Origin: an uncultured Nitrospinaceae bacterium
GTDB lineage: Bacteria; UBA8248
Length of the DNA stretch: 64,000 nucleotides
Assembly (NCBI GenBank): GCA_964005815.1
Contig: CAXFSR010000060.1
Coordinates: 8,559 to 72,558, forward strand
Direction of reading: 5' to 3'
Shown: in pieces, positions 56,501 to 64,000 of the stretch
How positions within the stretch are numbered: position 1 is the first letter of the stretch
Layout: every line of letters starts with the position of its first letter
Made by a program: the position numbers

Positions 56501-59500
56501 ACTCTGCCGATTTTTCCCTCAGCAACATCATATCTCGGTTTTCGGGTTTTCCAATTGGTTTTATCAAATAACATTTCTTTTTTTGGCATTAGAAAAAATT
56601 CTCCTCTCTGGACTAACTAGGCCCATCAATTAATTGAATGTAAAATTCTTCTCTATTCAAACCTATTCATGTTTTTTTTTCAAATCGTATTATTCCGTTT
56701 ATAACAGTACATGTAACAACAGAACGTTTGTCAAAAAGATGTTCTATATCTAAATATTTATAATCTTCAGGTATTTCCACAACGGTGAAATCGGCAACTC
56801 CGCCCGGCATGATTGATCCGACTCCTTCGTTTTCAAATCCCAAAGCTTTTGAACCAGAGAGTGTACAATACATAAGCAGTTCACTTGCTTCGATAGAACT
56901 GTCCTCTTCTCTTAAGGCTATTGCCTCTTCCAAAACAGAAAGAGAAGGAGAACTTGCAAGACTGTCTGTCCCAAGACATAACATTACTCCTTGACTCCTC
57001 ATTTGCATAATATCTGCTATTTGATGTTCAAAGAATGATGCAGAACGTGGACAAATACAAACATGGACTCCGTTTGTACGTAATAATCGCCAATCATTTT
57101 CATCCGTCTGATTACAATGTACAACAAGATCAATTTTTCGGAGAATCCCTTTTTGATTAAAATACTCTATAGGACTACAACCAAAAGGCTCAAAAAAATC
57201 TATATCGATTTTCAATTTTTTGAACATGTCCTGAAAACCACCTTCTCCAGTCTCTAGAAATTGCAACTCATCCGGACTTTCAAGAAGATGGGTTGCTACT
57301 TTCCAGTTATTTAAACTCCCATAAGATACCGTTCTCTTGTAGAGTTCAGAAGATGTAGAATAAGGTGAATGAGGACTAAGACCGTTTCGAACAAATTCGT
57401 TCGATTCTCCTTCGTAATTCTTAGATTCAGAAATTTCTTCCATTTTTTTATTGAAAATAATTTCAGCTTCCCTATCATTAATGCCTAAAAATTCATGAAA
57501 AATTACTCCCCTCATTCCTGCATCGACGATAGCCGTCTTACTTTCACCGGAGACACTAATATCTCCAACACAAGTTACACCGGAAGAAATACTATTTGCT
57601 GTTCCGATCCTTGAGGAGGAGAGAAATAAATGACTTGGCCACTCCCTTATTTGTGATACTAAATTTGGAATCCATTCCGAAAGTTTCGATGGTGAAATTT
57701 GCATACCGCTTAATTCAAGATGTGTATGTGAATTCACCAATCCTGGAATAAGAATCGAATTTTTGAAGTGTCTCTCAGTTACAAAAGTACTGTGAGGACG
57801 AATAAATTCTTCTTCCCCTACCGCTACAACTTTCCCATTTGAAGTTAAAACCGCTCCATTTCTTATAGGCAAATCACTTACCGGGCAAACTAGATCGGCT
57901 GTCCATAGTTGAAATCTATCTTTAGTGTTATCCAAACTTGATTCTTTCATGAAAGAAAAATCAGACTAATTCATAGAAAAAATTTCGTCTTTTCGGCAAA
58001 AAACCAGCATTTTTTGCCATGACACTTAAATCTTCTTCATTCAGGCAATAAGTCGTGCCCGCGGAACTCACGACATTCTCCTCAATCATAGTAGACCCCA
58101 TGTCATTTGCACCATAGTGAAGGGAAAGTTCTCCAATCTTCATTCCTTGAGTGACCCAAGAAGATTGAAAATTTGGAATATTATCTAAAAAAAGTCTGCT
58201 AATGGACAATGTTTTTAAATATTCACTACTGCCTACTGTTGGAACTCTTAGAGTTGCAGAACCGTCATTCTGAAAAGTCCAACAAATAAATGCTGTAAAA
58301 CCTTTCGTTTGGTCCTGCAATTCCCTTAAAGAACTTAAATGTTCAACTCTTTCTTCTAGAGTTTCTACATGACCGAACATCATTGTAGCAGTAGATCGTA
58401 AACCAAGACCGTGTGCGACTCTCATAATTTCGAGCCAACCTTCAGTATTCACCTTTAATTTTGAAATTTTGTTTCGAACTCGATCTACTAAAATTTCCCC
58501 ACCACCTCCTGGAATAGAATCGAGGCCAGACTGGTGCAACCTATTTATAACTACTTCATAAGGCATATCTTCCAACTTAGAAATATGATGAATTTCTGGT
58601 GGACTTAACGCATGTAAATGTATATCAGGATACTCTGTTTTCATCCATGAGAATAAATTTTCATACCATTCTATTCGCAAATCTGGATGGTGTCCTCCTT
58701 GAAGTAGAATTTGCTTTCCTCCCAAAGAATATAATTCATCAATCTTTTCCTTAATCTCTTCTTTTGTCCTTACATATGATTCTGGATGTCCACCTGGAGG
58801 TCGATAGAATGCACAAAATGTACAATAAACATCACACACATTCGTGTAATTTATATTTCGATCTACGCAATAAGTAGCAATCCCTTCGGGATGAAAGGAA
58901 TTTCTGATTTGATCTGCAGCAGCACCCAGTGCAACTAAATCATCACCTTCAAACAAAACAAGACAATCATCTGAAGACAATCTTTCCCCAAGTAAGGTTT
59001 TCTCTATTATCTGATAAAATTTTTTATCTGCCATTACAAAAAAGTCTCCGTAAAAAATTACGAAAAAATTACGAAAAAATTATGCCATAAAAAATAAAAC
59101 TACCCATTGTCTCTAAGTATAATTTCAGGAATTTGATTTCTATACGAAGTGTTCTCTTTTTCAAAAGCATGCGCAATTTGAAATAAATTTTCCTCTTTCC
59201 ATGGACCGGAAACAATTTGCATAGATGTGGGCATCCCAATTTGATCAAATCCCATAGGGGTAACTAAAGCTGGAAATCCTGTAACATTATGAGGAGTTAA
59301 AAACGGTCTGTGTAAATAATTATAAACGAACTCTTCTTTATCTATATTAGCCTTCAGTCCTTCTATTTTTGGAGCAACACAGGGAAGAGCAGGAGAAATA
59401 AGAGCATCAAAGGTTTTAAAAAAATCTTCCATTTCTCTTTGTAAAATTTCACGTTCACGCAAACCACTAACATATTCGTCCGTTGAAATTTTAAAAGACC

Positions 59501-62500: not shown

Positions 62501-64000
62501 TAGATATTTTTCATAATATTGATTGTTCAATTTTTACCTACCTCACAAATATCAAGGTCCGGGTACATAATTAGGACCATTATTTTCTTTTCTCTCTCTT
62601 CTTTTCGCTCTGACCTTTTTCTTCGAAGAAAATGTCTTTAAACGGTCCATATTTTCTTCTCCATCATTTCTAGTCCCAGCTTCGTAAACGTTACTCTTTT
62701 CAAAACTCATCTGACCAAAAATTCGCTTAAGATTCCTCTCAACAGGACTATCAGGAACATTTTCGCTATCTTCTTTTCCTAAGCTCTCTTTTTTCAAAAC
62801 CCATTCCTTAAAAAAGAAAAAATAAAGTGAGTAAAACTATCAACTAACAACATTATCTTCACTCTTCGAATATAAGCAACTTCATTTCTTGAAATTTTCC
62901 CGAGTATCTAGAAATTTTTTATCTTTTTTTATACAAACTGTCAAAAGTTGAGACTATTCAACCACAAGAACGATCTTTCCCTTTACATGTCCCTCTTCCA
63001 AAATAGAATGAGCACGACTTATATTTTCAGAGTTCATTAGACCAATTATATCCAATTTTCCCGGCTTTAAAACTTCATCAGCTAGCCAGTTCCTTATTGT
63101 TTCAAGAGATTTCATATAGACACCATAGTAATTAGGTCCGCCACCCCTTACAGGAGATCTTAAAAAAACGCTGTGAAAAGATGCAGATTTTGTATACATA
63201 GGTCCTGTTTTCGATGAAAAAAAGTTATCAATAGGCGCTCCTTCTTCTGGAGCAATAGAAACCACGCGGCCAAGATAATCAACAAGACGCATACAAAGTT
63301 TTTTCATATCTTTTCCAACAAAATCACAAGTAACTCTTGGTAATTTTCCATTATTTATGGATAAAACTTTTTCATATACCTCATCAAGTGATAAAGCAGA
63401 ATATAAAACAATTTTGTCAGGTTCTACTCCGAGTTCTTCAAGATAAACCGCACTCTCCTCGCTTCCCGCTGTAACTATTAAAGGATCTGCCTGAAAGAAT
63501 CGAAGCATTTGCACAGCCATACTACCCACTCCTCCAGAACCTCCTGCAACAAATACAGATTCATTTTTTGCCACTTTTGATTTTATCGAAACTGCTTCAT
63601 ACGCAGTTAATGATACCAAAGGTATTGAAGCAGCTTCTTCGAAAGATAAATTACTAGGTTTTTTCGCTACAAACTCATGAGGAACACAAACAAATTCTGC
63701 GTAACCGTTTCCACCGCTATCACCAAAGCGAGGAAGATAAGCCATCACTTCATCACCAGGCAAAAAACGATCTACATTCTCACCAACTTCTTCGACAATG
63801 CCAGCAGTATCTCTCCCTAAAATAATAGGAACTGCACCTTCGTTTCCTCCCAAACGTGCTTTATAATCTGTGGGATTGACAGAAACAGCTTTGGCCTTGA
63901 TCTTAACTTCACTAGGAGTAGGACTAGGTTCAGGCCATTCTCCATCCTGAAAATTCTCAGTTCCGCCAAATGCTTTGAGAATTACTGCTCGCATAATTCC

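What a model noticed while it worked through the whole genome (the two positions that open the first line are those of the whole stretch)
56667..62530. The only MqnA (chorismate dehydratase) is fused to an amidase-signature domain inside the futalosine operon
g02113 (769 aa) carries the genome's only MqnA-type domain (VitK2_biosynth, res. 6-250) fused to a complete amidase-signature domain (res. 318-742, GGSSGG kept). It lies between mqnC (g02112) and mqnE (g02114), next to aminodeoxyfutalosine deaminase (g02111). An amidase has no place in the published futalosine route, so the fusion hints at an extra step or substrate in this lineage.
Evidence so far: Domain order; VitK2_biosynth only on g02113 and on MqnD g00527; GGSSGG at 446-451. 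24 of the 120 listed database relatives have PF02621+PF01425 in one protein (50-100% id, mostly 746-774 aa; this lineage and Tectomicrobia); the nearest free amidases (~473 aa, 51-58% id to the C-terminal part) are widespread. CofH_C (MqnC/E) lies within 2 genes of an Amidase gene in 21 genomes of the order and at least 117 in all. Two papers hold MqnA+amidase, neither on a fusion by title or abstract.
(Added by a program. Inside this text positions count along the whole contig: contig position 8,559 is position 1 of the stretch shown here. "Call 12" and the like, gene names such as g00115 and contig names such as C1 are that model's own, and its searches are not shown. The text may have been shortened before it was handed on; [...] marks where a part breaks off. 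The agent that wrote the report below was given it as the finding of a first reader that could run no searches.)

Follow-up and report, generated by a model that had tools for sequence, protein, structure and literature searches.

The report
MqnA fused to an amidase
In this marine Nitrospinota lineage the first enzyme of the futalosine route to vitamin K2 is made as one protein with a complete, apparently active amidase, but comparison with relatives points to two neighbouring genes that merged rather than to a new pathway step.

Summary
Window 59100-61409 (minus strand) is one 769-aa ORF. It consists of a whole MqnA (res. 1-266), a variable spacer of about 27 residues, and a whole amidase-signature enzyme (res. 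294-769). It lies between mqnE and mqnC and holds the genome's only MqnA; the other PF02621 protein is MqnD. Catalytic residues of both halves are invariant in 20 aligned fusions. Both halves are under equal purifying selection (dN/dS about 0.1).

The fusion occurs in 30 of 51 Nitrospinota genomes searched, in 5 of 15 genera, and forms a single 50%-identity cluster in a 1.84-billion-protein library.

The reading 'extra pathway step' is not supported:
- Relatives run the same operon without this amidase (genus g6, family f2).
- One genus has mqnA, an LmtA-like methyltransferase and the amidase as three separate genes.
- The mqnA|mqnC gap holds unrelated cargo elsewhere (nadA-nadC).
- The fused amidase has no residues that set it apart from free orthologues.
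- Free orthologues with readable context lie by transporter genes, not mqn genes.

One point remains unexplained: fused amidase domains are not one clade (AU p about 1e-6). The substrate is unknown, and structure and complex predictions could not be run. The scan found the same fusion before in another genome (e1-1398613).

The parts
61391..62530 (-). mqnE, aminofutalosine synthase (radical SAM). Its last 19 nt overlap the start of the fusion gene.
   Evidence: TIGR03700 488.7 bits > 434.55; Radical_SAM + CofH_C
61414..61419 (-). Shine-Dalgarno-like AAGGAG, 4 nt before the ATG at 61409
   Evidence: read from the sequence
59100..61409 (-). 769-aa MqnA-amidase fusion ORF (P0001)
   Evidence: Full-length or contig-cut matches in 30 of 51 Nitrospinota genomes.
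60612..61409 (-). MqnA (chorismate dehydratase) part, res. 1-266. N15, S80, S54, S101 and G144 correspond to ScMqnA Asn17, Ser86, Thr59, Ser109 and Gly151.
   Evidence: PF02621 at 6-250. Alignment to PDB 2nxo/7ahr. Residue roles from PMC9672406 passages. These residues are invariant in 20 fusions. Free MqnA of G048 (268 aa) aligns to res. 1-266.
60531..60611 (-). Spacer, res. 267-293, variable in sequence and length
   Evidence: alignment A2. dN/dS is 0.23-0.95 over res. 262-296, against about 0.1 in the domains. Limits taken from free proteins.
59100..60530 (-). Amidase-signature part, res. 294-769. K373, S448 (first Ser of GGSSGG) and S472 align with S. aureus GatA K79, S154 and S178.
   Evidence: PF01425 at 318-742. 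Alignment to 2df4/3h0l. These residues are invariant in 20 fusions. Free 472-aa amidases align from their residue 3 to res. 294/295.
57961..59034 (-). mqnC, cyclic dehypoxanthinyl futalosine synthase
   Evidence: TIGR03699 484.2 bits > 428.1
56667..57950 (-). Amidohydro_1 hydrolase, probable (amino)futalosine/adenosine-type deaminase. It follows mqnC in relatives.
   Evidence: NF006269 184.6 bits, below the cut-off of 320. Synteny in G008, G040, G047, G023 and G034.
55984..56589 (-). PCC/DUF296-domain protein, conserved last member of the gene row; role unknown
   Evidence: PF03479 80.4 bits. It follows the deaminase in G047, G023 and G008. No NCBIfam hit.

Best explanation
The gene encodes a bifunctional protein made by joining two complete enzymes end to end, and the two enzymes work independently. 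The N-terminal part is the organism's chorismate dehydratase MqnA. It converts chorismate to 3-enolpyruvyl-benzoate, the substrate of the upstream-encoded MqnE, and so starts menaquinone synthesis. The C-terminal part is a Ser-cisSer-Lys amidase of a well-conserved orthologous group. It hydrolyses a small amide, not yet identified, to the acid plus ammonia. It is probably one of the many amide-scavenging enzymes of these nitrite oxidisers. The amidase gene came to lie in the variable gap between mqnA and mqnC of an older mqnE-mqnA-mqnC-deaminase-PCC operon. Loss of the DNA between the two genes then joined the reading frames through a floppy spacer of about 27 residues. Once fused, both activities were kept by selection on each, not on their union. 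Shown here: the domain make-up, the intact catalytic residues, purifying selection, the distribution and the synteny. Inferred: both enzyme activities, their independence, and the order of events.
For: Both halves are whole proteins. Free MqnA (268 aa) covers res. 1-266 and free amidase (472 aa) starts at res. 294/295. The spacer is variable and under relaxed selection.

MqnA residues equivalent to ScMqnA Asn17 and Ser86 are invariant. The fusion holds the only MqnA while MqnD, MqnE and MqnC are present and MenD is absent. The amidase triad is invariant. dN/dS is 0.08-0.14 for the MqnA part and 0.11-0.14 for the amidase part.

The pathway operon exists without this amidase. G008 has mqnE-mqnA-mqnC-deaminase-PCC, with its 55%-identical amidase on another contig beside TctA, DJ-1 and UPF0261 genes. 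In g6 (G040, a single contig, 98% complete) the best amidase is only 46% identical, and nadA-nadC plus an unknown gene sit in the mqnA|mqnC gap.

In g9 the order is mqnE, mqnA, an LmtA-like lipid A methyltransferase, then the amidase, as separate genes.

No fused-specific residues were found. 146 columns are >=90% conserved and identical in 22 fused and 94 free amidases, 0 are conserved but different, and no column has a residue shared by >=80% of fused and <=10% of free sequences.

Free orthologues L044 and L045 (52-53% identical) lie by ABC-transporter genes. 0 of 80 metagenomic amidase loci have MqnA, MqnE or MqnC in their flanks.

Only one fused representative appears among the best 150 of 1.84 billion 50%-cluster representatives, so no independent distant fusion was found.

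The genome has 10 PF01425 hits, including a true GatA next to GatB.

No futalosine-route intermediate carries an amide (established pathway chemistry; MqnA step from PMC9672406, the rest recalled).
Against: The fusion has been kept in 5 genera over about 50% sequence divergence, and also in a streamlined 2.2-Mb genome where everything else between mqnA and mqnC is gone.

Among 8 or more amidase paralogues per genome, it is always the same orthologous group that sits behind mqnA, fused or not.

The fused amidase domains are not one clade against free ones: AU p 7.5e-6, and 1.9e-6 without the compositionally odd genus g1 and the outgroups. This could mean repeated fusion. However, the groups were named after the tree was seen, and gene transfer explains it as well.

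The fusion genera lack any recognisable MqnB/MTAN, so their mid-pathway is not textbook.

No enzyme assay exists, and no structure or complex prediction could be run.
Confidence: 0.6

Rival explanations
1. The amidase is functionally tied to menaquinone synthesis in Nitrospinaceae. It would carry out a lineage-specific extra step, or clear or recycle an amide-bearing side product or precursor of a non-canonical futalosine route. Fusion to MqnA would ensure co-production or hand-over.
For: Operon position directly behind mqnA in 30 fused genomes plus 4 g9 genomes (a fifth is contig-cut), out of 51. Both halves are equally constrained. The fusion is retained in a streamlined genome. Fused domains are polyphyletic against free ones, which repeated fusion would explain. 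The fusion genera have only an MTAP-type PNP_UDP_1 protein and no MqnB/MTAN.
Against: g6 and G008 have the same operon without this amidase, and g6 also lacks a second PNP_UDP_1 protein. No fused-specific residues. Free orthologues lie by transporter genes. The g9 spacer gene is an unrelated LmtA-like methyltransferase. No amide is known in the route. The spacer between the domains is variable.
Confidence: 0.2
2. The amidase acts like GatA: a glutaminase that delivers ammonia to a partner active site (MqnA or MqnE), giving an aminated chorismate derivative.
For: GatA is the nearest solved structure (3h0l, 253 bits) and the best NCBIfam model (343 bits). Chorismate enzymes often use amidotransferase partners (general knowledge).
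Against: The score is below the GatA cut-off of 481. The genome has its own GatA (643 bits) beside GatB. The position of S. aureus GatA Asp425 (glutamine amino-group contact; role recalled) is an invariant Arg. The MqnA residues are the standard dehydratase set. No known ammonia-accepting step exists. The same enzyme stands alone in other genomes.
Confidence: 0.04
3. The amidase part serves mainly as a scaffold, for oligomerisation or stability of MqnA, and its catalysis is irrelevant.
For: Many amidase-signature enzymes are oligomers (general knowledge). MqnA is a small Venus-flytrap protein (PMC9672406).
Against: The catalytic triad and 146 conserved columns are kept exactly as in free enzymes. 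dN/dS is about 0.12. Free MqnA works alone in g6, g9 and other families.
Confidence: 0.05

Closest known systems
Chorismate dehydratase MqnA (S. coelicolor SCO4506, PDB 2NXO/7AHR; D. radiodurans 2I6E)
   Same: The N-terminal 266 residues: PF02621 fold family, equivalents of Asn17, Ser86, Thr59 (as Ser), Ser109 and Gly151, and a position next to mqnE.
   Different: Sequence similarity to ScMqnA is low (56 bits). The protein carries a 476-residue amidase at its C-terminus, whereas described MqnA proteins are stand-alone proteins of about 270-300 aa.
Free ~473-aa amidase-signature orthologues (e.g. P0027 at 58%, G008 at 55%, L044/L045 at 52-53% identity); uncharacterised
   Same: Same enzyme over its full length. 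146 columns are conserved alike, with the same triad and the same invariant Arg634 and Arg701.
   Different: They stand alone. Where context is readable, they lie by TctA or ABC-transporter genes, not mqn genes.
GatA, the glutaminase subunit of GatCAB (PDB 3H0L, 2DF4), and AtzE 1-carboxybiuret hydrolase (PDB 6C62)
   Same: Amidase-signature fold and Ser-cisSer-Lys triad. These are the nearest solved relatives (253, 244 and 190 bits).
   Different: Below both curated cut-offs (343 < 481; 327 < 461). The genome has a true GatA. Arg replaces the GatA Asp425 position.
Other MqnA fusions noted by this scan (MqnE-MqnA, MqnA-MqnC; e1-975944, e1-1495889, e1-977973, e1-1373281)
   Same: MqnA joined to the product of a neighbouring operon gene.
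   Different: Those fusions join enzymes of the same pathway. Here the partner has no known place in it. These notes were not re-tested here.
The same MqnA-amidase fusion in another Nitrospinota genome (earlier scan note e1-1398613)
   Same: Same architecture and the same conclusion, that neighbouring genes merged.
   Different: That note speaks of a lost stop codon. Here the only unfused arrangement found (g9) has a whole LmtA-like gene between the two, so a deletion or rearrangement is needed, or g9 is itself derived.

Membership tests
MqnA (chorismate dehydratase, PF02621 MqnA branch) | Match to PF02621 above the gathering score | tested here: met
   158.9 bits against 26
MqnA (chorismate dehydratase, PF02621 MqnA branch) | Absolutely conserved Asn17 and Ser86 (ScMqnA numbering), which position the enolpyruvyl carboxylate | tested here: met
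   N15 and S80 align to them, are invariant in 20 fusions, and their roles come from PMC9672406 passages
MqnA (chorismate dehydratase, PF02621 MqnA branch) | It is the MqnA and not the MqnD paralogue, in a genome with the rest of the route | tested here: met
   The other PF02621 protein matches MqnD TTHA1568. MqnE and MqnC pass their cut-offs. Every Nitrospinota genome with the family has one copy of each type.
MqnA (chorismate dehydratase, PF02621 MqnA branch) | Converts chorismate to 3-enolpyruvyl-benzoate | not testable with these tools
   Needs an enzyme assay
Amidase signature family (PF01425) | Full-length match and the Gly/Ser-rich signature | tested here: met
   382.5 bits, profile positions 1-444 of 445; GGSSGGS at 446-452
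Amidase signature family (PF01425) | Ser-cisSer-Lys catalytic triad | tested here: met
   K373, S448 and S472 align with S. aureus GatA K79, S154 and S178 (the residue numbers of the triad are recalled). Invariant in 20 fusions.
GatA (TIGR00132) | Score above the curated cut-off; partner of GatB/GatC; Asp that binds the glutamine amino group | tested here: not met
   343.4 < 481.1. A true GatA (643 bits) sits beside GatB elsewhere in the genome. Arg701 stands at the Asp425 position.
AtzE family amidohydrolase (NF006631 / TIGR02715) | Score above the curated cut-off | tested here: not met
   327 < 461 and 311.8 < 425.75
Aminofutalosine deaminase family (NF006269), for the neighbour at 56667-57950 | Score above the curated cut-off | tested here: inconclusive
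   It is the best model, but 184.6 < 320. The conserved position behind mqnC supports a pathway role.

The most novel reading that the evidence does not exclude
Nitrospinaceae run a non-canonical futalosine route. They have no recognisable futalosine hydrolase or MTAN, only an MTAP, plus a conserved deaminase and a PCC-domain protein in the operon. In this reading the MqnA-linked amidase performs a real, lineage-specific reaction on a pathway-derived compound, and its repeated joining to MqnA (polyphyletic fused domains) reflects selection for that coupling.
Probability: 0.15. Interest if true: 0.75.

Novelty: new variant of a known kind. Interest (0 to 1): 0.3.

Why it matters
If the fusion is only a merger of neighbours, it mainly matters for annotation. 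These 769-aa proteins are the chorismate dehydratase of a globally important group of marine nitrite oxidisers. They are named 'hypothetical', 'MqnA/MqnD/SBP family' or 'GatA' in public records, so pathway reconstructions may miss MqnA. It is also a clean cautionary example for Rosetta-stone inference: a conserved, selected fusion inside a pathway operon need not mean a shared pathway. If the minority reading is right, it would point to an undescribed reaction in the futalosine route, which is studied as an antibacterial target. It would then be worth testing together with the missing nucleosidase step in these genomes.

Tried and rejected
Structure and binding:
- Structure prediction on alignment A2 was not accepted ('being made ready').
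- The complex-prediction job (amidase 297-769 with MqnA 1-262) was never queued. The queue was full, and the job was not sent on at 71, 77, 79, 95, 107 and 109.
- So nothing is known here about contact between the domains.

Searches that gave little:
- The search for related loci with the single amidase domain in genome contigs gave only 5 distant amidases at 28-40% identity.
- The metagenome scan used generic patterns (GGSSGGSAA and similar). Only 2 of the 80 kept loci were >=50% identical.
- The ESM Atlas gave amidase clusters at score 0.85, which is a lead only.
- The listing of cluster members gave no usable taxonomy for 10 free amidases.
- Promoter-like and terminator-like sites are at chance level: 26 found against 27.9 +/- 5.5 expected, and 3 against 5.6 +/- 2.5.
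- No amidase at E<=1e-130 in 401 sampled Pseudomonadota or 301 sampled Acidobacteriota genomes. There was no positive control in those groups, so this means only 'not found in those searched'.
- RNA-library contigs (X17, X18) cover only short parts of the operon, including 60002-60171 in the amidase part. The uncovered parts say nothing, and DNA carry-over is not excluded.

Ideas dropped:
- Triple fusions in g3. The open frames of 881-1135 aa are off-frame read-through over mqnE in GC-rich genomes.
- The 325-aa ORF between mqnA and the amidase in G046 is a wrong-frame ORF. The real gene is the 246-aa LmtA/ICMT-like one.
- Arg701 as evidence for a carboxylate-bearing substrate. Arabidopsis FAAH also has Arg at this position.
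- The amidase as a stand-in for the missing MqnB. g6 lacks both, and an acyl-transfer triad does not fit N-glycoside cleavage.
- The second PNP_UDP_1 proteins of g9, f2 and f4 as MqnB. All score below every NCBIfam cut-off.
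Full report
**What is there**

On the minus strand the window carries a tight gene row:
- mqnE at 62530..61391 (TIGR03700 488.7 bits, cut-off 434.55).
- A 769-aa ORF at 61409..59100.
- mqnC at 59034..57961 (TIGR03699 484.2 bits, cut-off 428.1).
- An Amidohydro_1 hydrolase at 57950..56667. Its best model is the aminofutalosine deaminase family, but below the cut-off (184.6 against 320).
- A PCC/DUF296-domain gene at 56589..55984.

The ORF overlaps the end of mqnE by 19 nt and has an AAGGAG 4 nt before its ATG. 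It carries PF02621 at res. 6-250 (158.9 bits) and PF01425 at res. 318-742 (382.5 bits), with GGSSGG at 446-451.

The genome is 2.24 Mb in 64 contigs and 97% complete. It has only one other PF02621 protein, and that one matches MqnD of Thermus thermophilus (PDB 2czl/3a3u, 173 bits). No MenD passes its cut-off. So the fusion holds the organism's only MqnA, in a genome that depends on the futalosine route.

**The fusion is real**

- An independent metagenome run has a 3056-nt contig across the junction without gaps (X3, 59859-62600).
- Full-length or contig-cut copies occur in 30 of 51 Nitrospinota genomes searched: g1 4 of 4, g3 21 of 23, g2 3 of 4, g7 1 of 1, g8 1 of 1. Several of these are single-contig assemblies.
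- The long open frames of 881-1135 aa reported for g3 are off-frame read-through over mqnE, not larger fusions.
- RNA-library contigs at 99% identity or more cover short parts of mqnE, the amidase part (60002-60171), mqnC and the deaminase. This is a weak hint of expression.

**Anatomy**

A free MqnA of 268 aa (G048) aligns to res. 1-266. Free 472-473-aa amidases align from their third residue to res. 294/295. The protein is therefore a whole MqnA, a spacer of about 27 residues, and a whole amidase. The spacer varies in sequence and length among 20 aligned fusions.

In the MqnA part, the residues that Prasad et al. (PMC9672406; passages read) found essential or ligand-binding in S. coelicolor MqnA are Asn17, Ser86, Thr59, Ser109 and Gly151. 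They correspond to N15, S80, S54, S101 and G144. All are invariant in the 20 fusions.

In the amidase part, K373, S448 and S472 align with K79, S154 and S178 of S. aureus GatA (the triad numbering is recalled). These too are invariant.

Within the window's genus, dN/dS is 0.08-0.14 for the MqnA part, 0.11-0.14 for the amidase part and 0.23-0.95 for the spacer region, over six pairs. Across genera the two parts are equally conserved: 54-58% identity for MqnA and 49-55% for the amidase. Both halves are clearly kept as working enzymes.

**What the amidase is not**

It is not GatA. It scores 343 bits against a cut-off of 481. The genome has a true GatA (643 bits) beside GatB. The position of GatA Asp425 (role recalled) is an invariant Arg. 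It is also below the AtzE cut-offs.

It belongs to a tight orthologous group: 75% mean column identity among 30 members. It is one of 10 PF01425 hits in this small genome. I could not name its substrate. An Arg at position 701 also occurs in plant FAAH, so it says nothing about a carboxylate.

**Comparative evidence on coupling**

The gene rows of the phylum are as follows:
- f2 (G008): mqnE-mqnA-mqnC-deaminase-PCC with no amidase. Its 55%-identical amidase lies on another contig among PEP-hydrolase-like, UPF0261, DJ-1, amidohydrolase and TctA genes.
- g6 (G040, G039): mqnE-mqnA, then an unknown 345-aa gene and nadA-nadC (G040), then mqnC-deaminase. The best amidase anywhere in these genomes is 44-46% identical, which is paralogue level.
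- g9 (5 genomes): mqnE, mqnA, a 246-260-aa membrane methyltransferase most like Leptospira LmtA (217-219 bits, below the cut-off of 325), then the amidase, all as separate genes. mqnC-deaminase-PCC follows about 5 kb on.
- g3: mqnE, the fusion, then mostly a generic alpha/beta hydrolase. mqnC-deaminase-PCC lies further on.
- g2: the fusion, with the LmtA-like gene 5 kb downstream.
- g1 (this genome): mqnE, fusion, mqnC, deaminase, PCC, with nothing else between.

The gap between mqnA and mqnC is thus a variable site that holds unrelated cargo in different genera. The pathway operon exists without the amidase.

In a tree of MqnE+MqnA, the Nitrospinaceae lineages form an unresolved polytomy. In it g6 (no amidase) groups with fused g8 (support 92). 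A single origin of the fusion with later loss is therefore not excluded.

Further tests:
- Comparing 22 fused with 94 free amidase sequences, 146 columns are at least 90% conserved with the same residue in both sets. None is conserved but different, and no residue typical of fused proteins is rare in free ones. The fused enzyme shows no sign of a new specificity.
- The free orthologues with readable context (G008; L044 and L045 at 52-53% identity) lie by transporter genes. G037's copy is at a contig end.
- None of 80 metagenomic amidase loci, most of them distant, has MqnA, MqnE or MqnC in its flanks.
- In the 50%-clustered library of 1.84 billion representatives, only one of the best 150 hits has both domains. 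A distant independent fusion would have ranked there.

**What speaks the other way**

The amidase-domain tree places the fused domains in about four groups interleaved with free amidases. A tree that holds the fused domains together is rejected: AU p 7.5e-6, and 1.9e-6 after removing the compositionally odd genus g1 and the paralogue outgroups.

The groups were defined after seeing the tree, and the free sequences are mostly from metagenomes of unknown taxonomy. 90 of the 96 start with M and the rest with L or V. The result can mean any of the following:
- repeated fusion;
- export of the amidase from Nitrospinaceae to other lineages;
- replacement of the domain.

I cannot tell which.

Free MqnA proteins at 52% identity or more are few: 17 of 120 listed, 3 of them fragments, after which identity drops to 48, 42 and 39% or less. 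Free amidases at 51-58% are many, 96 of 120 listed. This at least shows that the amidase evolves more slowly than MqnA.

The fusion is also retained in a streamlined genome. And it is always this one orthologous group, out of many paralogues, that sits behind mqnA.

**Literature**

Searches were MqnA+amidase (2 papers), futalosine+amidase (5), futalosine+Nitrospina (1), chorismate dehydratase+MqnA (8), futalosine+DUF296 (0) and Nitrospina+amidase (11). By listings and abstracts, and by the passages read in PMC6302742, PMC9672406 and PMC12625717, none describes an MqnA-amidase fusion. Subscription journals are not covered.

The scan itself found the same fusion earlier in another Nitrospinota genome and reached the same reading (e1-1398613).

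**Verdict**

The best-supported explanation (about 0.6) is a bifunctional protein whose halves work independently, formed by merging neighbouring genes at a variable operon site. A pathway-linked role for the amidase keeps about 0.2, mainly because of the polyphyly result and the odd mid-pathway of these genomes.

Noticed in passing
G000 contig C9:46226-46936 (outside the window); phylum-wide: The genome has no recognisable futalosine hydrolase (MqnB) or MTAN. Its only PNP_UDP_1 protein is an MTAP (TIGR01694 310 bits > 274.85). All fusion genera and g6 show the same. The second members in g9, f2 and f4 score below every NCBIfam cut-off. How (amino)futalosine is cleaved in these bacteria is open.
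   Followed up: partly
window 55984-56589 (-): A PCC/DUF296-domain protein (PF03479, no NCBIfam hit) follows mqnC-deaminase here and in G047, G023 and G008. It is a conserved operon member of unknown role. No paper holds futalosine+DUF296.
   Followed up: partly
L036 8493-9275; L037 3104-3844; L130 659-1423: A membrane methyltransferase most like Leptospira lipid A methyltransferase LmtA (217-219 bits, below the cut-off of 325) sits between mqnA and the amidase in genus g9, and 5 kb downstream of the fusion in G012. It has no homologue in the window's genome (tblastn).
   Followed up: partly
L040 8041-11802 (G040): In genus g6 the mqnA|mqnC gap holds an unknown 345-aa gene (no Pfam or NCBIfam hit) and nadA-nadC. 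This shows that unrelated genes insert at this site.
   Followed up: no
whole genome G000: There are ten PF01425 amidase hits in a 2.24-Mb genome, eight of them full-length and one a true GatA. Relatives have 8-19 matches to the fusion protein each. This is a marked expansion of amidases in Nitrospinaceae.
   Followed up: no
window 62954-63994 (-): A Zn-dependent dehydrogenase/quinone-oxidoreductase-like gene lies 424 nt upstream of mqnE. 58-59%-identical copies lie 2-4 kb upstream of mqnE in G041 and G012.
   Followed up: no
L020, L026, L035, L134: In genus g3 a generic alpha/beta hydrolase directly follows the fusion gene (best models PcaD 133 bits < 256 and MenH 95 bits < 209).
   Followed up: partly
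G017 and G020 (genus g3): Two g3 genomes (93% and 79% complete) show MqnD but no MqnA or fusion. This is probably an assembly gap, but it was not checked.
   Followed up: no
window 53128-54796: bioF (TIGR00858 431 bits > 426.45) and a crcB fluoride exporter lie just beyond the gene row. Both are ordinary.
   Followed up: no
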